Counted from the stretch's first letter, positions 1,199 through 18,702 are shown. The stretch is DNA of 52,048 nt from Patescibacteria group bacterium (GCA_018818235.1 JAHISE010000123.1:1-52048), one strand, 5' to 3'. Notes: generated from the sequence alone by a model not told the origin. Translations and numbers: made by a program.

Positions 1199-1256
1199 GC
1201 AAGTCCCAATTTTTGCATTATTAAGCGAATATATTTGGTTGGTTTTAAGTTTAATC

Positions 1257-4200
1257 CTACTCAATCTTACACTTCGAGTCACACTCATCCCCATCAACAT
1301 TATTTCCGTCGTCGCAGCTTTCGCGGTTATATCTATCTACTATGCCGTCACCGCAGTAACCTGCATATATTTCGATATTTTTGCAGTCACTAGAACAATA
1401 AGTGCATTTATAATTATCCCTTATGGGATGAACCCCGCCATAATACGGCATATAAAAGGCTTTACACTTATTTCCATTTGCTATGCCTTTGTCACACTCC
1501 TCATCTACTTCCACCTTACTGTCACCACAAGTGGGTTCTGATACTTTATAGCATAAACAATCCCTGCATATTTTGCCCGGGATACATTGTTTCCAGCTTG
1601 CATCTCCACACTCTTCACCCGGATCAATTGTTTTGTTGCCGCAACACTGTTTTCCAAACCCCGCATCACAACTTGCTTCTATTCTGCAATTGGAATTGCA
1701 TCCATCATTGTTTTCCGTATTCCCGTCATCGCATTCCTCGCGTACGTCAACCATAATGCCATCTCCGCAGGCCACTTTGGGCATACATTCTCCTGTTTCA
1801 AAAACGCACCTGGCATATTTACCGTCACCCTCAACAATCGCACCAAATCTATTTGTGTCAGAACAGGCTTGCACGTCCGTACACTGCGGATTGTATATGG
1901 GATTCTTGCATATTCCACCAAGGCAACCGTCGGGGCAAAAAGCGAGTACTCTTTCGACTCCACCTTCGGTGCAATAGAATTCCTCGTGTAAGCAATTGCC
2001 TCCTGTACAATTATTTACAACTTTCCAGTTTCCTTGGTTTGCATTGCGAGAGATTAAGCCTGTAATACAGCGGTCAGGTAAGAAGGTTTGCAGATCATTA
2101 AGTACGAATGAAGTTTCTCCATACACATCAGTGCTTCGTCCGTTTTCGGTGTCTGAGCATATTTCCGGATCGATTTCCAGTTTGCAATCGGAATTACATC
2201 CATCTCCATTATCCTCATTACCATCGTCACACTCTTCGTTCCCTTCATGTTCTCCATCTCCACAAGCAGGCTCTTGGCATTCATTAGTGCAACTGTCAAA
2301 GTTATTATTATTCCCGTCATCACATTCTTCTCCTTCGTGCAGAATTCCGTCACCGCAAGCAGGTTCCGTACATAAGTTTGTGCATTCGTCAGTATTCACA
2401 TCATTACCATCATCGCACTCTTCATACTTGTTAGTTATTCCATCACCACATGAGTGTCTTCGTAGTATGCATTTGCCTTTTGCGCATCCATATTCACATG
2501 TTTTATTGGATGTGCTTAACTCTCCATTTTCACCGCACTCAACCTGCCGGAGGTTATTATCATCAATGCATTTATCGGTAACAAAAGATCGTATACCATC
2601 TTCGGAAATTTGCATCACTATGCCGGTTGTAAACATATAGTTCTCTGGTTTGGATGACGTTGCATTGGAAGTGCCTGCGTAGAGCACTTTCTCGGATGGA
2701 AGATCATTGCAGGAGACACTTAGTTCGGTTGAACCGGGGTAATCAGATATACAAATCAAAGCTTCATTGTTTTTGTCGCGGTCGACGGATCTAAATTGCA
2801 TTTTCTGTACATCGAAAATGTCATAACCGTCGTCAGTCATAAAAGTGATAACATCCGGATAAAGTTTCCTCGTGATACTTGCTATATATGCCTCAAAATC
2901 AGTGACGGACGGGGTTTTCCATTCAAGATCTTTGAATTGATTACCGTTCTTATTGCAGTCATTGTAACCTCCGACAGCCATTCCTTTGCCATAAAGGTTT
3001 ACAGTAATTGGTTTAGAAATAGTTGATTTTCCAACTTCTTCATCCAGAGGTGGCCATACAAGTACAGTATCGGCGCTCGCTCCCTTGCGACGCCCGACTA
3101 TCCAGATACTTTCATTTCTGCTAAGCAGACTGTATTTTTCCAGTTTTTCGAAATCAAGTCCTTCTACGAAAAGCGTTTCCCAGTTATCCAAATCAGATGA
3201 TCTGTATATGCGGCGTTGGTCGGAAGCAAACACGTAAAGCATATCATTATGCTCTACTGCGGCACTAACTCCGGGGCCTTGTGGCAAATCTTTATATGGG
3301 TCCCAAAAGTATTCTGTCTCCGTTACCTCTTCGGTTTTATATGTCGAAACTTTTACAAGCTTCTTTTTTCTTTCCTGTCTTTGTTTTTCAATTGCATTGT
3401 TTTTAAGTCTTAGATAATCGTTTTTGAATTTGAATGCAGGCAACCCACTACCGCCGTATGTTGCTTGCTTGGCAGGATCATCAATTTTCTGCCAATAGCA
3501 TCCGGAATCCAGTTTTTTATTTGAACAATTGAATGCTCTTCCGTAGTTTGCTTGGGTATTCGGTCTAAAGATACAATTTGTAATAACCGGTTCGCCGTCC
3601 AATGTGTGGAAGTCTGTAACATCTGCAATATCATGTTTGTTCCAGCTTTTGGAATACGGATTTTCGGCAATAGTTCTTGTACGTTTTCCGTATTCTAAAA
3701 AGAGCAATGAATTCTCTTTTTCCGAGAAAGTGTAAAAACCCGGCTGCCAGTATTTATTTCCAACTAAAGCAAATGTGTTGCTTTGCCACGGCATTTTGGA
3801 AATCACTTCCGTAAATTCAATATCGGTCTTGCGCTCACAGTTATATTTGCAATTATCTTCACCATCACATTCTTCGTCCGGACTTGTAACACCATCTCCA
3901 CATTCTGCAGGCTTCCACATACAATTGTTCATGCAAACATCGGTATTGTTCGTATTCCCGTCATCACATTCTTCGCTTTCCTCCAATTTTCCATTGCCAC
4001 AGACCAGATTTGTCATCTTCTCTTCCATATCCACAATCTCCAACACCCCCGTATTACAATCAAAAACCAAATCACGATCTGTTCTTACATAATAAACATT
4101 GTCTGCTGTTATGTTTTCAAGGGTGTTTTGCAGTGCCAACAGTGGTTGCCCCCTTAACATAGAAGAAGAGAAAGCAAAATCACCACCGAAAGGAGGTTCA

Positions 4201-4490
4201 TCTCCTGTGTACTCGTATACAAAAAAGTGAACGCCATCAGTTGCAGCTAATATTGGTCCTTCGACTAGCGGGTTTGTAGCAGCACATACAATTTGATTGT
4301 GATCATTAGTTTTAAAAATAACCGGATTTGCTGATTCTGCGGAAGTAAAACGTTTCTGTGCTCTTGCAACCGATGCAACAAAAAAATCATTATCAAATTT
4401 GGAGAATTGATTTTGTTGGATTTGGCCAATAGCAATTATTGCTATGGCAAGTGTTCCGATAAAGAAAAATGCTTTGGTTAACTTTAGCAT
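1257..4490 (-). CDS. Secreted cysteine-rich repeat surface protein, paralog 1 (shared N-module plus DUF4215-type repeats)
   Basis: 1077 aa. Signal anchor MLKLTKAFFFIGTLAIAIIAIG, followed by the conserved N-module (VIFKTNDHNQIVC...[24 protein letters not shown]...[16 protein letters not shown]). There are about 9 repeats of the CGDG..E.CDDGN...D.C...C type (Myxococcus cysteine-rich repeat / DUF4215 pattern). The central ~450 aa has no motif I recognise. Confidence 0.85.
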   Translation of the reverse strand: MLKLTKAFFFIGTLAIAIIAIGQIQQNQFSKFDNDFFVASVARAQKRFTSAESANPVIFKTNDHNQIVCAATNPLVEGPILAATDGVHFFVYEYTGDEPPFGGDFAFSSSMLRGQPLLALQNTLENITADNVYYVRTDRDLVFDCNTGVLEIVDMEEKMTNLVCGNGKLEESEECDDGNTNNTDVCMNNCMWKPAECGDGVTSPDEECDGEDNCKYNCERKTDIEFTEVISKMPWQSNTFALVGNKYWQPGFYTFSEKENSLLFLEYGKRTRTIAENPYSKSWNKHDIADVTDFHTLDGEPVITNCIFRPNTQANYGRAFNCSNKKLDSGCYWQKIDDPAKQATYGGSGLPAFKFKNDYLRLKNNAIEKQRQERKKKLVKVSTYKTEEVTETEYFWDPYKDLPQGPGVSAAVEHNDMLYVFASDQRRIYRSSDLDNWETLFVEGLDFEKLEKYSLLSRNESIWIVGRRKGASADTVLVWPPLDEEVGKSTISKPITVNLYGKGMAVGGYNDCNKNGNQFKDLEWKTPSVTDFEAYIASITRKLYPDVITFMTDDGYDIFDVQKMQFRSVDRDKNNEALICISDYPGSTELSVSCNDLPSEKVLYAGTSNATSSKPENYMFTTGIVMQISEDGIRSFVTDKCIDDNNLRQVECGENGELSTSNKTCEYGCAKGKCILRRHSCGDGITNKYEECDDGNDVNTDECTNLCTEPACGDGILHEGEECDDGNNNNFDSCTNECQEPACGDGEHEGNEECDDGNEDNGDGCNSDCKLEIDPEICSDTENGRSTDVYGETSFVLNDLQTFLPDRCITGLISRNANQGNWKVVNNCTGGNCLHEEFYCTEGGVERVLAFCPDGCLGGICKNPIYNPQCTDVQACSDTNRFGAIVEGDGKYARCVFETGECMPKVACGDGIMVDVREECDDGNTENNDGCNSNCRIEASCDAGFGKQCCGNKTIDPGEECGDASWKQCIPGKICRDCLCYKVSEPTCGDSKVEVDEECDKGIANGNKCKAFYMPYYGGVHPIRDNYKCTYCSSDCKNIEIYAGYCGDGIVDRYNRESCDDGNNVDGDECDSKCKIE

Positions 4491-4516
4491 TTGACGGTTT
4501 GGGTAGATTAAAAGGA

Positions 4517-4525
4517 ATTGTATCC
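4517..4525 (-). promoter_or_regulatory. Candidate -10 element (GGATACAAT) for paralog 1
   Basis: TACAAT hexamer 27-35 nt upstream of ATG 4490. It lies in a leader conserved with the leader of paralog 4 (aaattgtattta...gatacaat...ccaaac). Confidence 0.35.
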
Positions 4526-4596
4526 AATTGGCAACATAAATACAATTTCGTTAAAACGGGGATTAGGTGCAAATATTCTTTTCCAAAGGCCGATTA

Positions 4597-5994
4597 CTAT
4601 TCTCTCATTTTTGGCGTCACATTAATTGGTTCCTGGGTTTGAGTCCCTGCGCTTGGGATAAGCATCTCACAAACAGAAGGTTCTCCCTCACATTTCCATC
4701 CTATTTCTTTTTTACATTTATCATCACATCCATCGAAGACATCGGTATTCTTGTCATCACAAACCTCGCCAGTCGAAGGAGTAATTACACCGTCTCCGCA
4801 GGCGGGATCAAGCGGATCATCATCTGTTGGGGGAGATGAAGGACAGTCTGTGATACAGTTGCATTCGTTCTCCCATGCTTCACAAGTTCCATCTCCGCAA
4901 TTAGAACAAATACTAACATTTAACCCGGGAAGGCTGGATGGGGCTGTACACTCACCGTTAACTTTGCTTGCGATGATGATTGTATTTAATCCATCACAAC
5001 ATTGAGGCGCTCCGGAAAATGACATTTGTGTTTCTCCGGCTTCTAGACATTGTTCGGCATCACCTGTGCAATCTGCTGCACAATTGCATTTATCTTCGTC
5101 ATTACTTTTTTCACACTTGCCGTTACCACAAGTCTGTGCCCATTTGTCTTTACATACCCCTTTTACACCTTCGACATTAGGCGCAACACACAAGCCATCT
5201 TGTTCTGATGCCAAAGACTTAATGCCTGAGCTCTTGTTGCAGCACACAGTATGTCCGGATTGAGAATCCAAATAAACAAGTTCGCCATTTTGAGCGCATT
5301 CAGGTTCATCACATTGGATTGTTCCACAACTTGTATCACATCCATTTTCATCTTTTGGAGGAGGTACAAGCACGCATCCCTCGGCTAAATCCGGTTCAGC
5401 ACAGTGAAAAACCGGACATTCTGTGATTATTTCATCTTCATTTTTGCACTCGGAATCACATCCATCACCATCATCATTATTACCGTCATCGCACTCCTCT
5501 CCCGCATGATTCAAACTCAAGTGATCATAGATTTGTCCTCCTTCCACAACTCCATTTCCACATACATAAACAGTTTCCAGTTCTCCCGTATTACAATCAA
5601 AAATCAGATCACGGTCGGTTCTGATGTAATACATTTTTCCATTTGTGATGGTAGTTAAAGTATTTCTTGAAGCAAGCTTTGGTTGTCTTCTTAGCATTGA
5701 AGATGAAAAAATAAAGTCATTCAGAAATGGAGGCTCGTTTTCCGTTTTTTCGTATACAAAATAATTAGATATATCGGTGTTACTTAAAATTTCTCCTTCA
5801 CTAATGGGATTAGTAGAAGAGCATACGATTTGATTGTGATCATTAGTTCTAAATATAACTGCTTGAGCTGATTCTCCGAGCGTGAAGTTTTTCCGGTCAC
5901 CCTGAATTCTGGCAGTTAAAGAACCGTATGCAAAAATCGCAGTTAAAGAGAGGATTCCAACAAGGATAAGGGTTTTAAATGTGGGAAGTGGCAT
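4597..5994 (-). CDS. Secreted cysteine-rich surface protein, paralog 2
   Basis: 465 aa. Signal anchor MPLPTFKTLILVGILSLTAIFA, the shared N-module, and one DUF4215-type repeat ([18 protein letters not shown]). A Cys-rich module is shared with paralog 4. The C-terminal module is CGDG...CKKEIGWKCEGEPSVCEMLIP. Confidence 0.85.
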   Translation of the reverse strand: MPLPTFKTLILVGILSLTAIFAYGSLTARIQGDRKNFTLGESAQAVIFRTNDHNQIVCSSTNPISEGEILSNTDISNYFVYEKTENEPPFLNDFIFSSSMLRRQPKLASRNTLTTITNGKMYYIRTDRDLIFDCNTGELETVYVCGNGVVEGGQIYDHLSLNHAGEECDDGNNDDGDGCDSECKNEDEIITECPVFHCAEPDLAEGCVLVPPPKDENGCDTSCGTIQCDEPECAQNGELVYLDSQSGHTVCCNKSSGIKSLASEQDGLCVAPNVEGVKGVCKDKWAQTCGNGKCEKSNDEDKCNCAADCTGDAEQCLEAGETQMSFSGAPQCCDGLNTIIIASKVNGECTAPSSLPGLNVSICSNCGDGTCEAWENECNCITDCPSSPPTDDDPLDPACGDGVITPSTGEVCDDKNTDVFDGCDDKCKKEIGWKCEGEPSVCEMLIPSAGTQTQEPINVTPKMRE

Positions 5995-6021
5995 TGTTTG
6001 TTTGTGGATTTGTACGTATAT

Positions 6022-6030
6022 ATTGTATCA
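6022..6030 (-). promoter_or_regulatory. Candidate extended -10 (TGATACAAT) for paralog 2
   Basis: TGnTACAAT lies 28 nt upstream of ATG 5994. Confidence 0.4.
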
Positions 6031-6068
6031 CAAATGGGGATTTGAGACAATAAGTCTCATGCGCTTCA

Positions 6069-9000
6069 TTACTTAGTATTTGTGAAAAAGAATTCAAATA
6101 ATGATGCCCAGAAGGAGGAGAATCTGCCTTTGGATTGGGTGACTTCAGAAGCATCAGTTGATGGATAACATCCAAAATTTATGTTGTATACCGAGCCGTA
6201 TTGATTTACCCAGCCGTCATATCCATTGTGAGGTGCACTGACCAGAATGTTCAGATTACCATCTTTATCAAAGTCACCAATATGTGAGACCGACCAGCCA
6301 AAATCAATTCCCTTTCTAAATTCAACACCAATCCCACCGTCGTTTGTATCAGAAATTGTAGAACTCGATTTAACTGTTCCATCCACATTCAAAAGGAGTA
6401 TGTGTGCCTTTCCTACGATTCTATCTTCTTGATCATTAGAATAGTTACCAACCAACAGATCATTAATCCCATCCCCGTTTATATCACCAATATTACTGAC
6501 ATCAGCACCAAACATTGTTCTGTGAGTGGAGAAACCTAAATTCTTGGTCTTCGAATCAATCTTTTGTGATGATTTAACCGAACCGTCACTATTCAGAAAT
6601 TGAATCCACACACTATCCTGACTGCCCACAGCCAAGTCAGTTATACCGTCACCATCAATATCGCCTATTGCATCAATTGAACGACCATAGAAACCGCGAT
6701 CAGGCGTGAATTCGGTTTTGCTGTCAGAAGTTTGGCGGTACTTTTTAATGCTACCATCTTGGTTCATAAACAAAACTGAGACCGTAGGAATATCTTTTGA
6801 GTTTTTTATTGCATGACCTCCAATTGCAATATCTGTTATCCCATCACCATCCATATCTCCCATATTTGTAATACTACTTTCCTTTAATACCAATTCAGAG
6901 TCAGCAGAACTTTTATCTTGTAATCTCTGAGATGATTTAAGGGTTCCGTCAGTATTTAAGTATAATATGTGTGTATTGATGGGGTTAGTTACTCCGGAAG
7001 TATCCGATACTATTGCTATGTCCGGTGTTTGGTCTCCATCAAAATCACCGAGAGCTGCTACATCTACTACTTTTTCTTTCTGTTCGTATGCATACTGATC
7101 ACTCAAAATTGATTTGTATGATTTGATTGAACCGTCTTCGTTCATCAGCAAGATATAAATACCATATCCTTCCAATGATCCTTCTATTGCAACCGCAAGA
7201 TCGTTGATACCGTCTTTGTCCACATCGCCAATGTGTGCAATTGCTGATCCGAACCCTGTTATATACTGGCCGTCTTCAAAAACTTCTTTGTCTTTGACAG
7301 ATATTTCTTTGTAATCAATTACTCCATATATGTTTTTGGCACACATTGCAGGTGCCCCACAATCCCGGCTGCAGCTATCTTGTGTCTCTTTCTCGTTGCA
7401 AATCCCGTCACCGCACCAAGCAGTTGGCCCGTTGCTGCATGTCCCGGCTCCGTAACACTCTTTTCCTGCATCGCAGGTTCCCTTCTCTCCCCACTCCAGG
7501 CAATTATCATCGTCATAATCTCCGCATGTTCCATATTCTGATTTACTTAAACATTCTGTTGTATCTGATATGGTGCATTCATCTTCGCATTCAGCAAAAC
7601 AGCTAAGATTAACAAAGAAAATTGCACCCTTTCCCGTACCTCCGTGGTTATCTTTTGGTGCACCGATAAGGACATCGGGATTTCCATCGCCATCGAAATC
7701 TCCAAGTGAGCCGATAGATTCACCGGAGTACTTATTAAGCAATATATCTTCCTTAAGACCTCCATTCTTCTTGGAAAATGTTTTAGATGACATTACAGTC
7801 CCGTCACTATTCATAAATAGAATATAAAAACCGTTTTCATTCAGTGCTTCGACAACAAGGTCAGATACTCCGTTGGAATCCAGATCTCCAACACTTGCAA
7901 TACCACCATTCAGATACTGATTTCTAATTAGTCCGGCATCTTCACTTCGTGTTTTTACAGCATTTTTAACTGTTCCATTGTTATTCATGAATAAAATCCA
8001 TAATGCTCCGCCCATGTTATTTTGATTCTGATCCATAGATTCTCCAACGGCTATATCTATTACACCATCACCATCCATGTCTCCAATATTTGATACTGAT
8101 GATCCGAAGTCGTCCAAATCAGGACTGATATCTGATTCAGCCGGCTTCCAACCAGAATCAAGTAACTGTTGATTTGATATTTTAATATGGTCTTTTACAG
8201 CTCCGTCATTATCTAAAAATAGAATCCATGTTGCATTGGCTCCCGGCTCGCCGACAGCAACATCATTTATTCCATCACCGTCTAAATCTCCAAGTCCTGT
8301 AACACTTTGGCCAAACATTCCATCTTTAGTAAGATAACCTTCGAAGCCGCCCTCGCCGTCAGAAATTAAATTATATGACTTTACAGTTCTATCACTGTTT
8401 AAGAGTGCAATCCATATTGCGCCGGTAAAGGCATACTCAGATTTACTTTTACTGCCGGACCATGTCATAAATGTATAACGTTTATAATATTTTTCTCCAA
8501 TAGCTATATCTGTAACGCCATTTCCATCTATGTCTCCAATATTTGCTATTGAATTGCCAAATTGCTGATGAGCATTTTGGTTATCATCATAATAAAAGTC
8601 AGTTCCTTTAATTGTTTTATATGATTTAACTGTTTTGTTTGCATTCATGAAAAGTATAAATATAGAATTTTCTTTGTTGTTTGTATCTGCTCCTCCAATA
8701 GCAAGATCAGTCACGCCATCTCCGTTCATATCGCCAAGGGGGGTCATGCTGTGTCCAAAACCGCCTCCCACAATAAGTACATCTTCAAGGTTTCCTTCAA
8801 AATCGTTAATTGTTTTAACGTTTTTAACAACAATGTTTTGGTCTGCGCATGCTAATGCAGGACCGCAATCTTTCGAACAACTTTTCTGAGTTTCATCTCC
8901 GTTACAAAGGCCGTCGCCACATTTTGTAGCGGATTTGCTTGTGATGGTTTTCTTTACAGGTGATTTGGTTTCACCCTGACAGCCAAGATCCAAAATATAA

Positions 9001-12000
9001 ACTGCACCCTTGTTTGTGCCGCCGTCTTCGGATTCCATTGGGGTACCGACGGCAATCTCGGTACGTCCGTCTTTATCCAGATCACCAAGTGCACTGATAG
9101 AACCAAAACGGTGAGTATGCTCGTTTAAATCTGCAAAGAATCCACCCTGAGTTGACGAAATCACTTGTGATTCTTTAACTGTACCATCTTCATTCATCAA
9201 TAATAAATTGATGGAAAATTGAAGCTGATCTTCGCGCAAAGAACCAATAGCCAGATCAGAGATATGATCGCCGTTCAGATCTCCGATATTTGCAATGGTA
9301 TTATTGCCAGAAGGCTTGTCATTGATTTTGGATAATTCCTCAGTAATTTTGTAGGTATCTTTTACAGTGCCATCAGTGTTCAGGAACAAGATCCAGAATG
9401 CCTTGCGATTTGATCCGGATTCAGTTTTGTTGTTGGGCTCTCCAACTGCAATATCAATAATGCCGTCGTTATCCAAATCACCAATATTTACAACCGAATC
9501 TCCAAAACTATCCAAGCTATTGGAGTCCTTATTTGCAAAGTCAAACGTTGATTCGGATATTTCATTATGGGATTTTATTGTACCGTCTGAATTCATGAAT
9601 AAAATCCATACAGTATTGTTTCCATTCTGGCCAACAGCAATGTCATTAATACCGTCTCCATCCAGATCACCCAAGCCTGCAATATCCTTTCCAAAACCCC
9701 CATTTTTTAAGTCTCCAGTAAAACCACCTTCGTCCTTTGTAATTAATTTATAAGATTTAACACTTCCATCATTATTAAGCAGTGCAATCCAGACGGCGCC
9801 ATAAACTGTTTTTCCCATATAAAAGCCATGTTGTGTTTCGCCTATCGCTAGGTCGGACACGCCATTGTCGTCAATATCACCTATATTTGCTATCGATCTT
9901 CCAAAAAGCATATGATCACTGTTCATTGGGTTGTAAGTAATAAATTCTCTACTTGGCAGTTTTTTATGTGATTTGATCGTTTTGTCTTCATTCATAAATA
10001 AAATGAATACAGCTCCTGCCTGATGTATTACTCCGCCACCCAGACTTTTGTCTGCATCCGAACCAATAGCCAGATCTGTTACACCATCACCGTCAATGTC
10101 ACCCATCGCAACAATACTTGTGCCAAACATGTCTGAATTGGCAATTCCAAGTGTTGCATTTCCTAAAGCAGGAACCCTCTGATAGCTTTCTATATTATAT
10201 GGTTGATCTGCTGAACAAGTGAACGCACTGCCGCAATCTTTGGCACAATCCTCCTGGGTTTCATTTCCATTGCAAATCCCATCATCACAGGATTCGGTTC
10301 CTGCTAGTCTTTCAACTTCAGTTTTGCAATTATTACTGCACCCATCTCCGTTCTCATTATTTCCATCGTCACATTGTTCCTTCCCCTCTTTATTTCCATC
10401 ACCGCAGGTGGTTATGGCTTCTCCTGTGCAGTCCAATTCAAATATGTATATTGCACCGGACTCCCCCAAAAAGCCTTCATCTGCGGGGTTACCTGCATTG
10501 TCTTCCGGTGCTCCTACAATAATTTCCGGTTTACCGTTGCCGTCAAAATCTCCAACTAAAGATAAACTTTCTCCAAAACTGCGTGGTTTTGCACCAGCTT
10601 TTACAGGAGGGATAAAAATATTTTGAGATTTAACCGTACCATCTGAATTTGGCAATATTATCCACAAATCTCGTTTGTACAATGATGATGCGATTACGTC
10701 ATTTGTACCATCACCATCAATATCACCGGCATTTGCAACGCGGAGCCCAAAGCCATCACTGGTTGAAATATCACCCATAAATCCGCCAATATTTTTGGAG
10801 ATTTCTTGGCTTGTTTTTACTGTGCCGTCAGGGTTCAAAGATATTATCCAGAAAGCTCCATGCGTGTCTCCATCTTCCGAGAAGTTTCTTTCGCCAACTG
10901 CAATGTTAATGATGCCATTACCATTAAGGTCGCCAAGATTACTTATTGAGGATCCAAACATTGACCTGGTTTGCAGCTCCTCATTTAGATTTCCTTGTGT
11001 TGCAGAGATCTTTTTATTTGATTTTACAGTGCCATCAGAATTTAGAAATAGTATCCATACAGCACCTGCATCTTTGACGCCATCATCATCATTTCTTGAG
11101 CCGATTGCAATGTCTGTAATTCCATCACCATCCAAATCTCCCAATTCAGAAATTGCGTATCCAAAATTATCATATTCATCTAACCCATTTCCAGTACTAT
11201 CTTCTATTGATGATATTTTATGAGTTTTTTTAACGCTGGCATCAGCTTTAAGCAAAACTATATATACTGCCCCTTTTTCTTGGCCATGTTCATATTCCCC
11301 TGGTGCTCCTATTGCCAAATCAGTTACTCCATTACCATCTAAATCGCCAATATTTGTTATAGAAGTCCCAAGCCTGGCGTCATTATTGGTTTTAAAATTT
11401 GTTTCCAGGTTACTCTTTGTGGCTGAAAGTTTTCTAAATGATCTTACTGTTTTATCAGATTTCATAAAGAGCAGATAAACTACTCCTTGTCGTATGCCTC
11501 CATCATTCTCGCCCGGCGCACCAACTGCAAAATCTGTTATACCATCGCGATCAAAATCTCCAATTGATGTTATGCTAGCTCCAAAATTACTGCCCTGCAT
11601 AAGTATTCCAGAGAATGAGTCAGATGCATTGGATATCTTTGTGTAGTTATTGTAGCCATATTCCTGTCCTTTTAAACAAGTAATAGCACTCCCGCAATCT
11701 TTCGAACAACTTTTCTGAGTTTCATCTCCATTACAGAGCCCGTCGCCACAGGAAGGGGCTCCGCTTATTTGAGTTGAAGTTGGTGTTGTGGCAGGAGTTA
11801 CAGTAGGCGTAGGAGGCACAATAGGTGCGGGAGCAGTTTCGGGGGTTGGTGTAGTGGTGGTAACATCGGGTGTCAATTCAATAGTCAACACCCCATCAAA
11901 ATGAAAATCGCCTTCCTCTCCACCGTTCGGCATCACTTTACCGGCTTGCAAATCAAAAACAGAAATCCATTCTCCACCCGGTTGATACCCTGGACAATAT

Positions 12001-14081
12001 GCTTTGACGAGTCTGGCCATATTTGTTGAAGAGTGCGGTATTCCGATCCATGTATGAACGTAGCTCCCCTGATCGCCGATTTCAGGACTCTCAAGCAATT
12101 CTATTTTTTTTGAATTACTTGAGTTCAATTTAAATATTTTTAGTGAGCATCCGGGGATAGGTTTTTTTGTCTGATCGTCAACAACCTCTATCGGAACCTT
12201 TTCACCACTACTGACATTAAATGCTGAACAAGTCATATGTTGTGTTGCTCCTGGACACAATGATAGATCCGTATCATTTGCAGTTTTATTGATTATCGTG
12301 GAACCTAAAGGCGTAAATAGAGTATCTTCCATAAAAGTATCAAGTTTTGCAGTACCCAACATAGGATCAAGGAATAGATCTTTTCTGGATGCCCAATATT
12401 TATTGTTGGGATCTGTTGCTTTCATATCAATATACGGTTCGATCCCGGAGTCATCAGTAACATTCCCAATTGAATAGTATTCGCTCAAACCGAGACCATG
12501 ACCATGACCGAGTTCATGTATAAGTGATCTAAGTTGTCTTCTGTAGTAATCATCACGGGCTTCATCATCATTTGAAATATCATTTGAGTTCCAAATGTTT
12601 TCCAACTTATATCCAAAAGATGATATCGCATTGTTATTAAACATATTGCATCCGCCGTTACCACCGTGGCTTCTGTTAAGCTGGCTTTTTTCTATAATCA
12701 CATGATATTCGTAATCCGGTTTTAATGGATTGCACATACCGCCAGTTGGAAACGGCTTATCCCAGATTTCCACATGCTGATCAGGATCAAATACAAACTG
12801 CCTGACGGTACTTTTCGCATATATTTTATTTATATCTTCAACATAGCGTACAAGTCTATTGCTTACATCTGTAAGATCAGTATCAATAAGTTCAGGATCT
12901 AACAGAAAGCGTATTACAGCCGTTTTTGTCTGTTGCTCTTGCGGTGTAGGTTTAGAGTCTACAACTTTGTCCTGAACTTCTTCATGCTCCTTCTCCCGTT
13001 CAACTTCTTGAAGATCTGATTCTCTTTCTCCAAGCTCTCGTTCGATTTCACGCAAAACTTCATTTAATTGTTCATTCTCGCCACTCAGTTCATCAATAGA
13101 ATCTTTTGTATCAGTTTCCACTTTTGATGTAGTTGGTGTGTCCCTCTTTTTTGGGGCTATAACAGTTGGTGCGGAACTTTTTGCATCCTCTTTCTCCGGA
13201 GGCAAGTGTGCCTGCCCTAGTTCATTCGTAGTGTCGTCTACAGTTTCAGGTATATCAGATGATGGTTCAGCAGTTTTGGATGTTGCAGATACAGGCACAG
13301 CAGTCTCGGGTACAACTTGTTGGTCAGGCTCTATTATTGGATCGTTGCCTGTTGCAGTTTTCTCTATTGGTATAAGCATATCGCATACCGAAGGTTCACC
13401 TGAACACTTCCAGCCTATCTCTTTATTGCATTCATCGTCACATCCGTCGTTAATTTTTGTGTTGCCATCATCACATACTTCATCAGGATGTACCAATCCA
13501 TCACCGCATACTGCTGCAACTGCCTCAATTATACATGATGCACTACACCCATCCCCATCAATATTATTTCCATCATCACACTCTTCTGCACTGTGATTCA
13601 AACTTAAATTGGCATGTGTTTGTACTCCTTCCACTACACTATTTCCACATTCATAAACTGTATTTAGTACTCCTGTATTGCAATCAAAAACAAGATCACG
13701 ATCAGTTCGAATGTAATAAACGTTGCCTGCCGTAATTGTGTTCAGAGTGTTACGAATAGAAAGAATTGGTTGTTGTCTTAACATCGAGGATGAAAAGGCA
13801 AAGTCTCCCCCAAAAGGAGGTTCGTCTCCCGTGTATTCGTATACAAAAAAGTGAATGCCATCAGTTGCACTCAGGATATTGCTTTCGCTCAAAGTATTAG
13901 TGGAAGAACATGTGATTTGATTGTGATCGTTTGTCCGGAATATAACCGCCTGAGTTGCCTCTGCAATTGTAAAACGTTTTTGACCCCCCTGAACAGTTGC
14001 GGTCAATGAGTTGAATGTAAGGGTGGCAGTTGCGGATAAAACTCCAACAAGGAGAATAGTCTTAAAAATGGAACGTGACAT
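6069..14081 (-). CDS. Giant (2670 aa) secreted surface protein, paralog 3: N-module, Cys-rich repeats, zincin-like HExxH domain, four FG-GAP/VCBS-type repeat blocks
   Basis: Single uninterrupted 8-kb ORF. It contains a signal anchor, the shared N-module and DUF4215-type repeats, then an acidic coiled linker. The HELGH motif is encoded at 12504-12518 ([16 protein letters not shown]), followed by a PT-rich linker. Four blocks of Ca-binding FG-GAP-like repeats (GDxDGDGxxDxAxG) follow, and each block is preceded by CGDGxCNGxETQxxCxxDCG. Confidence 0.9.
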
Positions 14082-14110
14082 TGTTTGTGTTTGGGAATTT
14101 ATATATTGGT

Positions 14111-14119
14111 ATTATACCA
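14111..14119 (-). promoter_or_regulatory. Candidate extended -10 (TGGTATAAT) for paralog 3
   Basis: Perfect TGnTATAAT 30 nt upstream of ATG 14081. Confidence 0.45.
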
Positions 14120-14294
14120 TAAATATATTAAATGGTCGACTAGCAAAAAAGTAGGTAGAATCAATGCTTTTCAATGGAAAATAATTAGTTTGATCGAAGA
14201 ATTTTTACGAAGCGAGTGAACAATACTTACCACTCAATTTTGTCCACATTACCGCTAATTAGTATGAGTCGGTATCTGTATCAAGATTATTCTA

Positions 14295-17200
14295 TTATGG
14301 GTTTTTGCTACAATCGTTTCTGCAGTCATCCGTATCTACACTATTTCCATCATCACATTCTTCGTTGCCACCGACGTATCTGTCTCCACAAGTAATTTGT
14401 GAAAATTTTAAACAACTACTTGGTTCATATCCGCAAGAATATCCTGTTTCAATACTGCAAAAACTTGAACAGCCATCACCGGATATTGTATTTTTGTCGT
14501 CACATCTCTCATTACCTTCTATAAATCCGTTACCACATTCAATCTCTGCAGTTTCTGGAATTAATCCTTTGTACAACCTGTAAATTTCAACCGGTTCAAG
14601 TTCTTTCTTATAAATACGTACATCATCAATAAACAGATGCCCAAGTTGTGTACCGAGTCCGATTCCTGATTTTGTAATAACATCTGTATTGCTGCACTCG
14701 CCGGAATCAAAGTGATACTGTGGAGTTAATTTGTTGTTGTAGCAGCAAACAAGATTTCCATTAATATAAACCTTAGGAGAATAATTGTCCCGATTTGGCC
14801 AAACAATTGAAATATGATGCCAATTATTATTTGTAATCAATGATTGTTTTGTACGCATGTAACCACATCCCCATTTTTTCCATCTATTAAAGAGCAAAGT
14901 TCCATCTTTCATAATATATACCTGATAAGCAAAGGCATCGCTGGTTTTAAAGTTCTCACTAAACATTGTTCCCTGAACTACAGGTCTTTCTATTAGAGCA
15001 TCGGTTCCGTCAATCTGATCAGTTTTTACCCAGAATGACATTGTTACATCTGATCGTGTTTCAGGTAGTTTGTTTGGAATAATTACTCCGGCATCACTTG
15101 CAAGTGTCATTGCACTTGCACCGACTTCCAATGATTTTGAGTTGGTAAAACTCACACTAACCCTATTGGAAGACCATTTAATATCATTGCTATTATTAAT
15201 CATTGATCCTGTAAATTCAGAAGTCGATGAGTCTTTTATCGAGTTTCCCGAACCTTCATCTAATTTATAATATGCAATTAAATCATTATTATCATGACCA
15301 TCGGGCTTATTGTTAACCGGGCATTCCGATGTTCCTTTTCCAATCCCATCGCAATAATCATAATTAAATTCACAATTTGTTGTGCAACTGTCGTTCGTAT
15401 TATTCAAATTACTGTCGTCACAATCCTCTCCTTCATCTACCCTTCCATTCCCGCACTCCTCAAGCCAACATTTAGAATTACATCCATCACCATCAATTTT
15501 ATTATTATCATCACATTGCTCGAAATGTGAGAATCCGGTTGGATTATCAAGAGCTCCATTACCACATAAAATCAAGCTCTTACAAACATTTTTCTTAATA
15601 CACATGTTTTTGTTTTTATCATAATCATAAGTACATACACTGTTAGTATTCTCACACATTGTTCTGTTTGCTTTTTCGTGATCGGATGTTCTTTCGCCAC
15701 TTGGAATCATAATTTCTAAACATTCCTGACAAAGTGCAGTGATGTCTTCCATTTTACAATCTGCTGCACATCCATCTCCGTCTTTAGTTCTGCCATCATC
15801 ACATTCCTCTCCTAATTCCCGAACATAATTACCACATACAGGATCGGACTTAACACCTGCTTCATTAATAACACAATTATTGGTGCACGTATCTGAATCA
15901 TCTGCGTTGCCGTCATCACACTCTTCACCAACATCTAATCTGTAATTTCCACAAAATTCTTTCATACAATATTTGTCACATCCATCACCATCAATATTAT
16001 TTCCGTCATCACACTGTTCGTGGTTCCAGGCAGATAGAGAGCCATCGCCACACCTTCCGGGTGTCGGGCATAATTGCGGATCAGAGCTACATCGACCAAC
16101 CACTGAGGATCGCATATCTGCCTGATGAGTGGAATATACACAATATGATCCAATTTTTTTGCAGCTATTAATGTTGCATCTGGCTTGCATTGCAGAATAA
16201 CTATTGCTCATGCCGTATTGATAGCCGCAATATTGTCCACATTTATTACAGTCATCTAATGAGTATGCTCTGCTTTCCCACATACAATTATTGCTACATC
16301 CGTCTCTGTCATCTGAATTTCCATCATCGCATTCTTCTCCTATAGCAATATTCCCATCTCCACATTTTCTTTTGCATGAGTTATTACATGCATCGTCATT
16401 GTCTTGATTGCCATCATCACATTCTTCACCACCTTCTACTCTTCCATTTGTACATTCTGATATCAGACATGTTTCGTCGCATCCGTCACCATTTATGGTA
16501 TTGCCATCATCACATTCTTCATCGGATTTAAGTTTACCGTCTCCACAGAATTCTTTTTTGCATTCACTGTCACACCCATCTCCGTCAGTTAGATTTCCAT
16601 CATCACATTCTTCACTTTCATCTATTTCATCTACTATTCCATCCCCACATTCTACTATCATACATTTGGAGTTGCATCCGTCACCGCCATCTTTATTACC
16701 ATCATCACATTCTTCAGTTGCGAAAAGTTCCGGGAAGTATTCCAGCTTTCCGTTACCGCAATTTGAATTAATTGTTGAACAAATGGGATTTGCAACACAG
16801 CGTGAATAATCCGAATTAGGTGAACATATTTTACTGTCAACACTCTTGCATTGTGCTGTTATTTCATCTTTCCAATATGAACCAATATGCGTTATCTTTA
16901 AGCTGTTGCATTCATTACACAAATCGATAGCTTGTTTTAGTGATTTAGTACTGCCATCGACACATCCATTCTTGCCAATTTCACAACTGGATGAAAGACA
17001 TACACCATCTCTACAAATACTTGGGCAAGTAACTTGCTCATAGCTCACGATTCCTTTTTCGTCATCACAAAATGCTTCCGAAAGTACTCGATCGCCAAGT
17101 TGTGCAACACAATAGTCTTTGAATCCACCGTATCCTTCACGAATTATAAAGCCGAATTTATCGTAAGCTTTTCCACCGTCCGAATCAAAACATGCTACTT

Positions 17201-18581
17201 TTTTACATTTATTATCACATTGGTCAATATTGTTATCGTTACCATCATCACATTCTTCATTCCCTTCCTTCTTGCCGTTGCCACAAACAGCATCTTTTAC
17301 GATTGGTGAACATGGATCAACTAAATAAATAATAGGATCCCCATCCTCATCACATCTTGGGAAAATGTCTCCGTTGTCACAGATAAATGGAGGACAAGCT
17401 GGAGCCGATTTTACCGGAAAACATTGTGAGCTACTTTGGCATAGTGCACTGTTACATGGAGTTATGATTACCGGTGCCAGGCAACTCTGTTGATTATTTT
17501 GTTGAGATGGACATGGATCAAGAGCACACATTGCATCGTCATCATCATCGGCAATTACAGATGGAGGACAATCTTTTATACAGTTGCATTCGTTTTCCCA
17601 TACTTCACAAGTTCCATTCCCGCAGTTAGAACAAATACTAACACTTAATCCTGGAGGAGCGGGGGGAGTCGTACACTCACCGTTAACTTTGTTTGCGATG
17701 ATAATTGTATTTAATCCATCACAACATTGAGGCGCTCCGGCAAATGGCATTAATGTTTCTCCTGCATCCACACATTGCTCAGCGTCACCTGCGCAATCTG
17801 CTGCGCAGTTGCATCTATTCTCTCCTGTTTCACAATTATTGTTTCCGCAATTGATGCAGATCATAAGGTCATCAGGTATACATTCGCTATTTGTATCGTT
17901 TAGATCTGCCGGTATTGAGTTGCTTACAACAGACAGTCCGTTACAACAAGCCGGTCCCATGAATCCTCCTTGTGTGGTACATGGGGGATCAGTTTCTTGG
18001 CCTGTTGCAGAGCATCCGTCTCCATCGTCGGTATTGCCATCATCACACTGCTCTGCCATGTGATTCAGTCCTAAATGATTATGAATTTGTTCTCCTTCAA
18101 CAACTCCATTCCCATATTCATAAATAGTATTCAGAATCCCGGTGTTACAATCAAAAACCAAATCACGATCTGTGCGAATGTAATAAGTATAGCCTGCAGT
18201 AATATTGTCCAAGGTGTTTCTTATAGCAAGCAAGGGCTGATCTTTTAACATAGAAGAAGAAAATGCAAAGTCACCCAAAAAAGGAGGTTCATCTCCCGTA
18301 TATTCATATACAAAAAAGTGAATGCCATCAGTTGCGCTTAACACCGAGCCTTCACTAAGTGGATTAGTGGAAGAACATGTGATTTGATTATGATCATTTG
18401 TTTGGAATATGACTGCCGCAGTTGCTTCATTTATCGTAAATCGCTTTTGGTTTCCTGCAATTGAAGCAAGGAATAAGTTATTGGCAAGTTGGTCACTTTG
18501 ATTTTGTCTAACTTGACCGATTGCAACGATGGCTATGGTGAGTGCTCCTATTGTTAGAAAAGATTTGAATATGTGTGGCAT
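14295..18581 (-). CDS. Secreted cysteine-rich repeat surface protein, paralog 4, with a LamG/concanavalin-like domain
   Basis: 1428 aa. Signal anchor, shared N-module and more than 12 DUF4215-type repeats. A LamG-like segment is encoded at about 14575-15290 (LIAYYKLDEGSG ... MSFWVKTDQ ... WHHISIVW ... LFIDDVRIYKKEL). Confidence 0.88.
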   Translation of the reverse strand: MPHIFKSFLTIGALTIAIVAIGQVRQNQSDQLANNLFLASIAGNQKRFTINEATAAVIFQTNDHNQITCSSTNPLSEGSVLSATDGIHFFVYEYTGDEPPFLGDFAFSSSMLKDQPLLAIRNTLDNITAGYTYYIRTDRDLVFDCNTGILNTIYEYGNGVVEGEQIHNHLGLNHMAEQCDDGNTDDGDGCSATGQETDPPCTTQGGFMGPACCNGLSVVSNSIPADLNDTNSECIPDDLMICINCGNNNCETGENRCNCAADCAGDAEQCVDAGETLMPFAGAPQCCDGLNTIIIANKVNGECTTPPAPPGLSVSICSNCGNGTCEVWENECNCIKDCPPSVIADDDDDAMCALDPCPSQQNNQQSCLAPVIITPCNSALCQSSSQCFPVKSAPACPPFICDNGDIFPRCDEDGDPIIYLVDPCSPIVKDAVCGNGKKEGNEECDDGNDNNIDQCDNKCKKVACFDSDGGKAYDKFGFIIREGYGGFKDYCVAQLGDRVLSEAFCDDEKGIVSYEQVTCPSICRDGVCLSSSCEIGKNGCVDGSTKSLKQAIDLCNECNSLKITHIGSYWKDEITAQCKSVDSKICSPNSDYSRCVANPICSTINSNCGNGKLEYFPELFATEECDDGNKDGGDGCNSKCMIVECGDGIVDEIDESEECDDGNLTDGDGCDSECKKEFCGDGKLKSDEECDDGNTINGDGCDETCLISECTNGRVEGGEECDDGNQDNDDACNNSCKRKCGDGNIAIGEECDDGNSDDRDGCSNNCMWESRAYSLDDCNKCGQYCGYQYGMSNSYSAMQARCNINSCKKIGSYCVYSTHQADMRSSVVGRCSSDPQLCPTPGRCGDGSLSAWNHEQCDDGNNIDGDGCDKYCMKEFCGNYRLDVGEECDDGNADDSDTCTNNCVINEAGVKSDPVCGNYVRELGEECDDGRTKDGDGCAADCKMEDITALCQECLEIMIPSGERTSDHEKANRTMCENTNSVCTYDYDKNKNMCIKKNVCKSLILCGNGALDNPTGFSHFEQCDDNNKIDGDGCNSKCWLEECGNGRVDEGEDCDDSNLNNTNDSCTTNCEFNYDYCDGIGKGTSECPVNNKPDGHDNNDLIAYYKLDEGSGNSIKDSSTSEFTGSMINNSNDIKWSSNRVSVSFTNSKSLEVGASAMTLASDAGVIIPNKLPETRSDVTMSFWVKTDQIDGTDALIERPVVQGTMFSENFKTSDAFAYQVYIMKDGTLLFNRWKKWGCGYMRTKQSLITNNNWHHISIVWPNRDNYSPKVYINGNLVCCYNNKLTPQYHFDSGECSNTDVITKSGIGLGTQLGHLFIDDVRIYKKELEPVEIYRLYKGLIPETAEIECGNGFIEGNERCDDKNTISGDGCSSFCSIETGYSCGYEPSSCLKFSQITCGDRYVGGNEECDDGNSVDTDDCRNDCSKNP

Positions 18582-18607
18582 TAGGCAGTTTGGGGAAGCT
18601 AAAAGAT

Positions 18608-18616
18608 ATTGTATCT
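18608..18616 (-). promoter_or_regulatory. Candidate -10 element (AGATACAAT) for paralog 4
   Basis: TACAAT lies 27-35 nt upstream of ATG 18581, within the leader conserved with paralog 1. Confidence 0.35.
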
Positions 18617-18702
18617 AATTGATAAGGTAAATACAATTTTAGTAAAGATGGATTGGGATCAATGCCAAATATTGTGGAAAAAATAGTAAACCGAGTTATA
18701 AA

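What the first reader, a model, noticed from the sequence alone, without database searches (positions are those of the whole stretch)
1257..18581. Tandem array of four secreted proteins (465-2670 aa) with one constant N-terminal module and unrelated payloads
All four minus-strand genes (1257-4490, 4597-5994, 6069-14081, 14295-18581) begin with a signal anchor. A ~140-aa block follows that aligns by eye at high identity: (F)T..E...[57 protein letters not shown]....YY.RTDRDL.FDCNTG.L. After that the architectures diverge completely.

- Paralog 1 has Cys repeats plus an unknown 450-aa core.
- Paralog 2 has short Cys modules.
- Paralog 3 has an HExxH domain and four FG-GAP blocks.
- Paralog 4 has more than 12 Cys repeats and a LamG domain.

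I do not recognise the N-module as a named family. The constant-head, variable-body logic resembles polymorphic surface or toxin systems. In a putative episymbiont this could be a dedicated export, anchoring or processing handle for host-contact proteins. The array occupies one third of the window.
Basis: partly seen in the sequence, partly recalled or inferred. Interest (0 to 1): 0.72.

Follow-up and report, generated by a model that had tools for sequence, protein, structure and literature searches.

The report
Shared unnamed head domain, four surface proteins
Four neighbouring giant cysteine-rich surface-protein genes of an uncultured ultra-small (CPR, Peregrinibacteria-like) bacterium all start with the same membrane segment plus a roughly 110-residue domain that matches no Pfam, NCBIfam or PDB entry; the domain heads about 65 other protein clusters in related bacteria and most likely holds these variable adhesin-like proteins at the cell surface.

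Summary
Four minus-strand genes lie at exactly the stated coordinates. Each begins with a hydrophobic segment followed by a ~110-aa module (65-84% identical between paralogs; tblastn E 1e-45 to 1e-63), and the bodies differ.

- **No named match.** The module has no Pfam, NCBIfam or PDB sequence match.
- **Wider family.** A full HMMER scan of 1.84 billion representatives found 69 hits, of which I count 68 as real. Those with a source name are from Peribacter/Peribacteraceae, one 'Saccharibacteria'-labelled MAG and a 'Patescibacteria group bacterium'. The module almost always sits 3-40 aa after an N-terminal hydrophobic segment.
- **Structure.** AlphaFold2 with a 57-sequence alignment gives pLDDT 96. 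Foldseek finds nothing significant in PDB or BFVD. Two cysteines co-vary perfectly (66 both, 5 neither), which suggests a disulfide.
- **Age.** The paralogs are old (dS at least 1.2) and under purifying selection (dN/dS about 0.1), with mosaic exchange between them.
- **Variable island.** A groundwater relative has a syntenic three-gene array. The closest relatives have none between RecR and PurH.
- **Not a toxin system.** There are no toxin domains, no immunity genes and no conserved secretion or sortase partner.

Best reading: a retained signal anchor plus a juxtamembrane base domain for variable adhesin-like proteins. Large Cys-rich surface proteins in Peribacteria were already published (PMC4736985). 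The new element is the head domain.

The parts
1257..4490 (-). W1, 1077-aa paralog: signal anchor, N-module, 5-6 DUF4215/TIGR02232 Cys repeats, ~465-aa unassigned core
   Evidence: Identical protein in GCA_043811675.1, named 'DUF4215 domain-containing protein [Patescibacteria group bacterium]'
4026..4361 (-). N-module of W1 (aa 44-155)
4425..4472 (-). N-terminal hydrophobic segment of W1 (aa 7-22)
4597..5994 (-). W2, 465-aa paralog: anchor, N-module, Cys modules; C-terminus ends in the 'KKEIGWKC.GEPSVCEMLIP' repeat end
5563..5898 (-). N-module of W2 (aa 33-144)
5911..5973 (-). N-terminal hydrophobic segment of W2 (aa 8-28)
6069..14081 (-). W3, 2670-aa paralog: anchor, N-module, Cys repeats, acidic/Pro-rich linker, HExxH motif (aa 522), FG-GAP repeats with a repeated CGDGxCNGxETQ...DCG module at aa 778, 1265, 1721 and 2223
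   Evidence: D5, D8, D9
13650..13985 (-). N-module of W3 (aa 33-144); this is the sequence modelled by AlphaFold2
14013..14060 (-). N-terminal hydrophobic segment of W3 (aa 8-23)
14295..18581 (-). W4, 1428-aa paralog: anchor, N-module, 14 TIGR02232 repeats, Laminin_G_3 domain
18117..18452 (-). N-module of W4 (aa 44-155)
18516..18563 (-). N-terminal hydrophobic segment of W4 (aa 7-22)
4834..5093 (-). Body block shared by W2 and W4 (partner copy at 17559-17818): 85% nt and 75% aa identity, higher than the 66% nt identity of their N-modules. Evidence of domain exchange between paralogs
   Evidence: D7
17559..17818 (-). Partner copy in W4 of the shared W2/W4 block
   Evidence: D7
19056..21236 (+). 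W5, divergently transcribed 726-aa Cys-repeat protein with its own signal anchor but no N-module. It shares the 'EIGWKC.GEPSVCEMLIP' block with W2 and W3. A module-less, divergently oriented 364-aa DUF4215 gene occupies the same position in the Rifle relative
   Evidence: I1
18582..19055 (.). 474-bp divergent intergenic region between W4 and W5, with an (AAATCAC)x4 repeat at 18714-18741 followed by an A8 run, and a promoter-like site at 18997-19024
739..21361 (.). ~20.6-kb variable island between RecR (145-738, +) and PurH (21362-22879, -). In the three closest relatives these two genes are less than 1 kb apart, with no module or Cys-repeat genes

Best explanation
The four genes belong to a lineage-specific family of modular cell-surface proteins found in CPR MAGs. 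Those carrying a source name are Peribacter/Peribacteraceae/Peribacteria/Peregrinibacteria, plus a few labelled Gracilibacteria, Saccharibacteria, 'Patescibacteria group bacterium' or just 'bacterium'.

The constant head consists of:
1. a short basic n-region;
2. a ~16-21-aa hydrophobic helix;
3. a short linker;
4. a ~110-aa, mostly beta, disulfide-stabilised domain with no match in Pfam, NCBIfam or PDB;
5. one DUF4215/TIGR02232 cysteine-rich repeat.

**Proposed mechanism.** The hydrophobic helix takes the protein through Sec and is kept as an N-in/C-out signal anchor. The module folds just outside the membrane, locked by the Cys26-Cys102 disulfide. It acts as a constant base or docking piece, and its invariant loop YE(Y/F)TGxEPPFxG is the candidate contact for a constant envelope partner. 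The cysteine-rich repeats form a stiff stalk. The variable distal bodies (FG-GAP repeats, LamG, Cys modules, an HExxH region) carry out ligand or partner-cell binding.

**Evolution.** The array evolves by duplication, exchange of segments between paralogs, and gain or loss of the whole island between relatives.

**Shown.** The family exists; the module's position is fixed; the cysteines co-vary; selection is purifying; the paralogs are mosaic; the island is variable; there is no match to known families or folds.

**Inferred.** Retention of the anchor, the docking function, and the adhesive role of the bodies.
For: **Family and position.**
- 69 representative proteins match at E<=1e-3; I count 68 as real, excluding P0004.
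- In 70 proteins (66 of the 69 hits plus W1-W4, R2 and R3, with two duplicate entries) the module starts 3-40 aa (median 17) after a hydrophobic segment of median 18 aa. Two further proteins, P0013 and P0032, fell below the segment threshold.
- The one protein whose module is internal (P0058) also has a hydrophobic segment directly before it.
- W1-W4 have no C-terminal TM or sorting signal, no lipobox and no prepilin (N_methyl) match. The head is therefore the only candidate for retention.

**The anchor is under constraint.** In 12 Peribacter-type paralogs the hydrophobic segment is 56% identical, the module 48%, and the region 200-400 aa downstream 13%. That is atypical for a disposable signal peptide.

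**A folded extracytoplasmic domain.**
- AlphaFold2 gives pLDDT 96.4 and pTM 0.89.
- The two cysteines are both present in 66 sequences, both absent in 5, and never present singly.
- The Peribacteria paper reports one disulfide-bond formation protein (PMC4736985).

**A constant function.** dN/dS is about 0.10-0.14 with dS at least 1.2 or saturated. C26, Y49, G53, E55, P56, G60, S65, Y90, Y91, C102 and G105 are near-invariant across 57 sequences.

**Variable adhesin-like bodies.**

**Mosaic evolution.**

**Island behaviour.** A syntenic three-gene array lies beside PurH and the pilus genes in a Rifle groundwater relative. The array is absent between PurH and RecR in the closest relatives.

**Literature.** Peribacteria encode large, Cys-rich, strain-variable extracellular proteins proposed to act in attachment (PMC4736985).
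Against: - No signal-peptide or topology predictor was available, so cleavage of the hydrophobic segment is not excluded. W2 and W3 have a possible L-T-A cleavage motif just after it.
- The restricted alphabet of hydrophobic segments inflates their identity.
- No binding partner is identified, and there is no conserved neighbouring gene.
The Cys-Cys distance and the surface exposure of the conserved loop were therefore not checked.
- About half of the Peribacter-type homologs also carry a conserved ~190-aa C-terminal domain (32 of 69). That domain could be the real envelope-docking element in those proteins. It is absent from this window.
Confidence: 0.5

Rival explanations
1. Cleaved secretory proteins. 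The hydrophobic segment is an ordinary Sec signal peptide that is removed, and the module is the mature N-terminal cap. It would act as a pro-domain, an intramolecular chaperone, or a non-covalent wall or S-layer binding domain of released proteins.
For: The n-region and h-region layout is compatible with a signal peptide, and W2/W3 have L-T-A after the h-region. The Peribacteria paper predicts signal peptides for most Cys-rich proteins.
Against: The h-segments are long (median 18 aa, up to 27). Their sequence is conserved as strongly as the module itself. No consistent AxA motif lies at a fixed distance; in W1/W4 the only A-x-A is 20 aa after the segment.
Confidence: 0.22
2. Export or assembly handle. 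The module is recognised by a dedicated machine, for example the adjacent type IV pilus/T2SS-like apparatus, which moves or mounts these large proteins across the envelope.
For: The array lies 2-5 kb from a PilB/PilC/pilin cluster in this window. The same adjacency is kept in the Rifle relative.
Against: - In seven Peribacter-type loci the module gene sits elsewhere, and no pilus or secretion gene was seen in L004, the one locus annotated in full; RNase Y also precedes the gene in L009.
- The closest relatives keep PurH, the response regulator and the pilus genes but lack the array.
- W1-W4 have no prepilin motif.
Confidence: 0.1
3. The module is itself a ligand-binding or host-binding (lectin-like) domain shared by all family members.
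For: It is a small, mostly beta domain. Weak, non-significant Foldseek neighbours include CBM, PliG and galectin-like beta-sandwiches. It has a conserved exposed-looking loop.
Against: All structural matches are at noise level (best E 0.036, TM 0.36). A membrane-proximal position behind bodies of up to 2500 aa is a poor place for a distal receptor-binding site. Strong purifying selection contrasts with the variable bodies.
Confidence: 0.1
4. Polymorphic toxin or effector system: a constant trafficking head with variable C-terminal toxins and cognate immunity genes.
For: The layout has a constant head, variable remainder and tandem arrangement.
Against: - No toxin, Rhs, haemagglutinin, LXG or PT-type domains are found in W1-W4 or in 64 homologs.
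- The intergenic gaps are 74-213 bp with no small ORFs.
- The whole body varies, not just a C-terminal tip.
Confidence: 0.03
5. Trivial recent local duplication or assembly artefact with no wider meaning.
For: Paralogs are more similar within a genome (65-84%) than between genomes (52-62%).
Against: - Synonymous sites are near saturation (dS 1.2 to above 2).
- The same proteins are assembled independently in several samples and assemblies.
- The family occurs in about 65 other clusters.
Confidence: 0.01

Closest known systems
Large cysteine-rich extracellular proteins of Candidatus Peribacter riflensis (Anantharaman et al. 2016, PeerJ, PMC4736985)
   Same: A related CPR lineage. The proteins are large, Cys-rich and carry predicted signal peptides. 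[quoted passage not shown] Genes are clustered (a 14-gene cluster), vary between strains, and have a proposed attachment role.
   Different: The text I read does not describe a shared N-terminal domain. The window organism is a different lineage (PurH about 70% identical to a Peribacteria contig). Its proteins lack the ~190-aa C-terminal domain common in Peribacter-type homologs.
Gram-positive surface-protein families built on a constant wall-docking module: Clostridioides difficile CWP family (CWB2 repeats) and SLH-domain proteins (comparison from my own knowledge)
   Same: The logic is the same: one constant envelope-retention module fused to many unrelated functional domains, with paralogs often clustered in one locus.
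   Different: There is no sequence or Pfam similarity. Here the module is single-copy, follows a hydrophobic helix, and its binding to wall polymers is untested.
DUF4215 (PF13948) / TIGR02232 'Myxococcus cysteine-rich acidic repeat' proteins, including pappalysin-type architectures
   Same: All five window proteins (W1-W5) carry these repeats. W4 also has a LamG-type domain and W3 an HExxH motif, reminiscent of the pappalysin domain set.
   Different: The N-module is not part of that repeat family. No metzincin family matches, and the motif is [11 protein letters not shown] rather than HExxHxxGxxH.
Polymorphic toxin systems (CDI/Rhs/MafB type; from my own knowledge)
   Same: Constant N-terminal region, variable remainder, tandem paralogs.
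   Different: No toxin tips, no immunity genes, and no known trafficking domain.

Membership tests
DUF4215 / TIGR02232 cysteine-rich repeat proteins | One or more repeats matching PF13948 / TIGR02232 above the curated cut-off | tested here: met
   TIGR02232 scores: W1 148 bits, W2 43.5, W3 77.4, W4 291.6, W5 117.4 (cut-off 20.8). PF13948 is above its cut-off in W1, W3, W4 and W5, and just below in W2 (25.5 against 27).
FG-GAP / integrin-alpha-like repeat proteins (W3 only) | Multiple FG-GAP repeats (PF01839 / PF13517) | tested here: met
   PF01839 at 338.7 bits in 13 stretches; PF13517 at 186 bits. A repeated Cys module at four positions suggests four blocks.
Any named domain family for the N-module (Pfam-A, NCBIfam) | Significant HMM match of the ~110-aa module | tested here: not met
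   No match in the module region of W1-W4. Across 57 module sequences at E<=5, no Pfam family is hit by more than one member.
Any solved structure or fold for the N-module | Sequence-profile or structural match to PDB | tested here: not met
   Profile against PDB sequences: best E 0.058. Foldseek with the pLDDT-96 model: best PDB E 0.036 at TM 0.36, best BFVD E 0.046 at TM 0.38. AFDB and ESM Atlas were not available.
Polymorphic toxin systems | Variable C-terminal toxin domain | tested here: not met
   No toxin family in W1-W4 or in 64 homologs. One homolog has a weak TcdB_toxin_midN match at E 8e-5.
Polymorphic toxin systems | Immunity gene immediately downstream of each toxin gene | tested here: not met
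   Gaps between array genes are 106, 74 and 213 bp.
Sortase-anchored (LPXTG) surface proteins | C-terminal LPXTG-like motif followed by a hydrophobic segment and a basic tail | tested here: not met
   The C-terminal 40 aa of W1-W4 show none. No sortase appears among the window ORFs scanned.
Type IV pilins / pseudopilins | Class III signal peptide (N_methyl motif, G/F-T-L-x-E) | tested here: not met
   PF07963 matches two neighbouring pilin genes (27703-30681 and 33769-34302) but none of W1-W4.
SLH / CWB2 / LysM wall-binding module proteins | Presence of the respective Pfam domains | tested here: not met
   No such match in W1-W5 or the homologs. The similarity is of logic only.
Metzincin / pappalysin-type protease (W3) | HExxHxxGxxH zinc motif and a match to a peptidase family | tested here: not met
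   Only [11 protein letters not shown] at aa 522. No Pfam, NCBIfam or PDB sequence match to aa 380-760.
N-terminally anchored (type II, signal-anchor) membrane proteins | Uncleaved N-terminal TM helix with N-in orientation | not testable with these tools
   Only indirect evidence: segment length of median 18 aa, sequence conservation of 56%, and basic n-region. No SignalP, DeepTMHMM or proteomics were available.

The most novel reading that the evidence does not exclude
The module is a new-fold envelope-docking domain that defines a surface-display system specific to Peregrinibacteria-like CPR bacteria. It would be the functional counterpart of SLH, CWB2 or LPXTG anchoring. If so, an HMM of this one domain would enumerate the partner-contact surface proteome of these uncultured bacteria, and its invariant YE(Y/F)TGxEPPFxG loop would point to an unknown envelope receptor.
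Probability: 0.3. Interest if true: 0.62.

Novelty: new variant of a known kind. Interest (0 to 1): 0.45.

Why it matters
How CPR/Patescibacteria hold proteins on their unusual envelope and contact partner cells is largely unknown outside type IV pili. This head domain gives a concrete and searchable marker:
- an HMM with about 70 sequences;
- a confident structural model;
- a candidate binding loop;
- a probable disulfide.

It marks one family of large, variable surface proteins in Peregrinibacteria-like lineages. The loci behave as variable islands with exchange of segments between paralogs, which fits diversification of surface proteins. It would let specialists list candidate attachment proteins per genome and design binding or localisation experiments.

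It does not overturn anything. The class of proteins was already reported, and unnamed lineage-specific domains are common in CPR genomes.

Tried and rejected
- **Word-indexed protein search** with the 4-sequence and 57-sequence module alignments returned nothing. This is a limitation of the index, because the full HMMER scan found the family.
- **Genome-collection scan** with the window-type patterns found nothing. The 57-sequence alignment was too diverse to make patterns. A 10-sequence Peribacter-type alignment worked.
- **Metagenome scan** found only two more loci. A viral-contig scan found none.
- **First AlphaFold run** with four sequences was poor (pLDDT 53) and I did not use it.
- **P0004** (nine weak stretches in a repeat protein) is treated as a spurious hit.
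- **Weak Ig-VH hits** (E 0.2-0.9) and a single Lipocalin_5 hit (1 of 57 members) are treated as noise.
- **DGR idea.** It was prompted by a bAvd/23S_rRNA_IVP-like gene beside the array in the Rifle relative. No reverse transcriptase was seen there or in the window ORFs I scanned, and that gene has no room in the window (125-bp gap). I dropped it.
- **Phase-variation idea** for the (AAATCAC)x4 repeat. The copy number is identical in four independent assemblies plus the window; a fifth assembly breaks inside the repeat. No support.
- **Protease assignment of W3 and function of the W1 core.** Neither has a PDB sequence match.

Full report
**1. Observation**

The window holds four consecutive minus-strand ORFs at exactly the coordinates given: 1257-4490 (W1), 4597-5994 (W2), 6069-14081 (W3) and 14295-18581 (W4) (translations).

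Their first ~200 residues align at 56-61% identity. The core module of 112 residues aligns with 83% mean column identity and 61 invariant columns. tblastn of each module against the window finds exactly the four copies (E 1e-45 to 1e-63) and nothing else below E=0.2. The repeat finder recovers the same four DNA copies at 67-75% identity (family D1).

Each protein starts with a Lys-containing n-region and an uncharged hydrophobic segment of 16-21 residues.
- **W1:** DUF4215/TIGR02232 cysteine repeats plus a ~465-aa stretch with no Pfam or PDB sequence match.
- **W2:** short Cys modules.
- **W3:** FG-GAP matches in 13 stretches, a repeated CGDGxCNGxETQ...DCG module at four positions that suggests four blocks, and a single HExxH motif with no protease-family match.
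- **W4:** 14 cysteine repeats plus Laminin_G_3.

One correction. The conserved module is ~110 aa, not ~140. With the first Cys repeat, the shared head reaches ~180-190 aa in W2/W3/W4.

**2. Source organism and context**

W1 is identical to a protein on contig JBDRMY010000034.1 of GCA_043811675.1. NCBI names it 'DUF4215 domain-containing protein [Patescibacteria group bacterium]'. The same proteins are assembled independently in several samples, so the array is not an assembly artefact.

The gene order in the window is:
- RecR;
- a TrpR-like gene;
- the array;
- W5, a divergent fifth Cys-repeat gene without the module;
- PurH;
- a response regulator;
- PilB, PilC and pilin genes;
- a histidine kinase;
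- RNase P RNA and tRNA-Thr;
- a serine recombinase.

PurH is about 70% identical to that of a Peribacteria contig (contig of L009).

**3. The module is a real family that matches no named family**

No Pfam or NCBIfam model matches the module in W1-W4. When 57 family members were scanned at E<=5, no Pfam family was hit by more than one member. Profile searches against PDB sequences give only noise (best E 0.058).

A full HMMER scan of 1.84 billion representative proteins with the four-module profile found 69 proteins at E<=1e-3, 11 of them at E<=1e-10. One, P0004, is a spurious repeat hit. Two are W1 and W4 themselves.

Named members come from Candidatus Peribacter or Peribacteraceae, plus one record labelled Saccharibacteria from the Rifle aquifer. 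Seven genome loci are from MAGs labelled Peribacter, Peribacteria or Peregrinibacteria, one labelled Gracilibacteria and one labelled only 'bacterium'.

Position is fixed. In 70 proteins the module begins a median of 17 residues (range 3-40) after a hydrophobic segment of median 18 residues. These are 66 of the 69 hits plus W1-W4, R2 and R3, with two duplicate entries. Two further proteins fell below my hydrophobicity threshold. The single case with an internal module (P0058) also has a hydrophobic segment just before it.

Bodies are very diverse. They include DUF4215 in 36 of 64 homologs, DUF11, dockerin, Kelch, CARDB, LVIVD, CHRD and FG-GAP. About half (32 of 69) end in a conserved ~190-aa C-terminal domain that also has no Pfam match and that no ORF of this window contains.

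**4. Structure and constraints**

- With four sequences AlphaFold2 was uninformative (pLDDT 53).
- With the 57-sequence alignment it gave pLDDT 96.4 and pTM 0.89. The model is mostly beta, with about eight strands and three short helices.
- Foldseek found no significant neighbour in PDB (best E 0.036, TM 0.36) or in BFVD (best E 0.046, TM 0.38). AFDB was not available, so I can call this only a possibly new fold.
- Near-invariant positions are C26, Y49, G53, E55, P56, G60, S65, Y90, Y91, C102 and G105, centred on the loop YE(Y/F)TGxEPPFxG.
- The two cysteines are both present in 66 sequences, both absent in 5, and never present alone. That is the pattern of a disulfide pair and fits an extracytoplasmic domain.
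- Between the window paralogs dS is 1.2 to saturation, dN is 0.13-0.28 and dN/dS is about 0.10-0.14. The copies are old and under strong purifying selection.

**5. Evolution of the array**

Modules are more alike within a genome (65-84% here; 75% for R2-R3 in the Rifle relative, though R1 is only 55-58% identical to R2 and R3) than between genomes (52-62%). This points to lineage-specific duplication or some concerted evolution.

The heads are mosaic:
- the pre-module segment pairs W1 with W4 and W2 with W3;
- the module pairs W3 with W4 (84%);
- the post-module repeat groups W2, W3 and W4 against W1.

Body blocks have also moved. W2 and W4 share a 260-nt block at 85% nt identity, higher than the 66% of their modules (D7). 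W2, W3 and W5 share the '...EIGWKC.GEPSVC.MLIP' repeat end (I1).

A Rifle groundwater relative (PurH 75% identical) has the same neighbourhood: PilB, response regulator, PurH, a divergent module-less DUF4215 gene, and then three tandem module genes of 515, 1263 and 1839 aa.

The three closest relatives (PurH 85-86% and RecR 80-83% identical) have PurH and RecR less than 1 kb apart, with no module or Cys-repeat gene. The ~20.6-kb segment between RecR and PurH is therefore a variable island.

Tandem pairs also occur in two Peribacter-type loci.

**6. Mechanism**

No dedicated partner gene is conserved. In the one Peribacter locus annotated in full (L004), the module gene lies between RNase Y and EF-Tu; RNase Y also precedes it in L009. 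Here it lies beside PurH and pilus genes. W1-W4 lack prepilin motifs, lipoboxes and C-terminal sorting signals. The head is thus the only constant element that could retain them.

In 12 Peribacter-type paralogs the hydrophobic segment is as conserved (56%) as the module (48%), while the downstream sequence is 13%. This argues that the helix is kept and functional rather than cleaved.

My preferred model (confidence about 0.5) has three steps:
1. Sec insertion.
2. A retained N-in/C-out anchor.
3. A disulfide-locked juxtamembrane base domain with a conserved docking loop, carrying a Cys-repeat stalk and variable adhesin-like bodies.

Anchor retention, docking and adhesion are inferences.

Rivals are set out in the rival-explanations section:
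- a cleaved signal with the module as mature cap, pro-domain or non-covalent wall binder (0.22);
- an export or assembly handle for the pilus-like machinery (0.10);
- a ligand-binding domain (0.10);
- a polymorphic toxin system (0.03; no toxin domains, no immunity genes);
- a trivial duplication or artefact (0.01; refuted).

**7. Comparison with what is known**

Anantharaman et al. 2016 (PMC4736985) already reported that Peribacteria encode large, strain-variable, cysteine-rich extracellular proteins. Their account includes a 14-gene cluster, FG-GAP annotations, and weak similarity to Myxococcus repeats and pappalysin, with a proposed role in attachment. A 2024 survey notes that huge proteins of Peregrinibacteria were assigned no COG functions (PMC11573180).

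New here are the shared head domain, its fixed juxtamembrane position, its confident model without a PDB neighbour, the covarying cysteines, and the island and mosaic behaviour.

In logic the system resembles Gram-positive surface-protein families built on a constant wall-docking module (CWB2, SLH; from my own knowledge). It is not a member of those families, because no domain matches.

**8. Verdict**

I rate it a new variant of a known kind: a family of modular surface proteins with an undescribed constant head domain. It is of moderate interest, mainly to CPR and cell-envelope specialists.

Noticed in passing
window 18714-18749 (within the 18582-19055 intergenic region): A heptamer tandem repeat (AAATCAC)x4 followed by A8 lies in the divergent promoter region between W4 and W5. 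It looked like a possible contingency or phase-variation repeat, but the copy number is identical in the window and four independent assemblies. A fifth assembly breaks inside the repeat.
   Followed up: yes
window 37265-39466: RNase P RNA (37265-37647, -) is followed by tRNA-Thr (37764-37840, +). The 3' end of the tRNA is overlapped by a large serine recombinase ORF (37793-39466, -). Downstream lies a low-GC stretch (0.36-0.38 at 42-50 kb) of ORFs with no Pfam match, then a Fic/DOC gene (50342-51304). This is probably an integrated mobile element at tRNA-Thr.
   Followed up: no
window 23502-34302: A type IV pilus-like cluster: response regulator, PilB (T2SSE), PilC (T2SSF), a 992-aa protein with a prepilin N-methylation motif and a thrombospondin type-3 repeat (27703-30681), an LVIVD-repeat protein, and a further pilin (33769-34302). 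The same cluster sits beside the array in the Rifle relative.
   Followed up: partly
L011 8383-8769 (Rifle groundwater relative): A 128-aa gene matching 23S_rRNA_IVP and bAvd (the accessory protein of diversity-generating retroelements) lies between PurH and the Cys-repeat genes. No reverse transcriptase is annotated within 10 kb, and the window has no room for an equivalent gene (125-bp gap).
   Followed up: partly
Peribacter-type homologs, e.g. L004 9812-13273 (aa 968-1154), L008 2263-4998 (aa 718-912): A second conserved domain with no Pfam match, ~190 aa, lies at the extreme C-terminus ('...ITSITNANPDANGT.VP.G...IGQFKF...W.EYP.T.V.STSY.S'). It occurs in 32 of 69 family members, sometimes twice, and is absent from every ORF of the window.
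   Followed up: partly
Family-wide; window examples W2 aa ~445-450, W3 aa ~236-240, W5 aa ~287-292: A short motif '(L/V)IP.L(P)G' recurs in Peribacter-type proteins, both in the linker between the hydrophobic segment and the module and directly after the first Cys repeat ('C..LIPTLPGG', then a Ser-rich linker). The window proteins keep only 'C(E/D)MLIP'. It may be a processing, glycosylation or docking motif. Unexplained.
   Followed up: no
window 8863-8921 and 11692-11750 (inside W3): Two of the four [20 protein letters not shown]-encoding modules are 95% identical in DNA, against 61-75% for the others. This suggests a recent internal duplication or conversion within W3 (D9).
   Followed up: no
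window 20267-20440 (inside W5): A 93-nt tandem duplication (81 nt aligned at 91% identity) encodes 'DDDDDLPLEIQDIIQGLPTI(N/D)T', within a long Asp/Ser/Thr/Gly-rich low-complexity body (D10).
   Followed up: no
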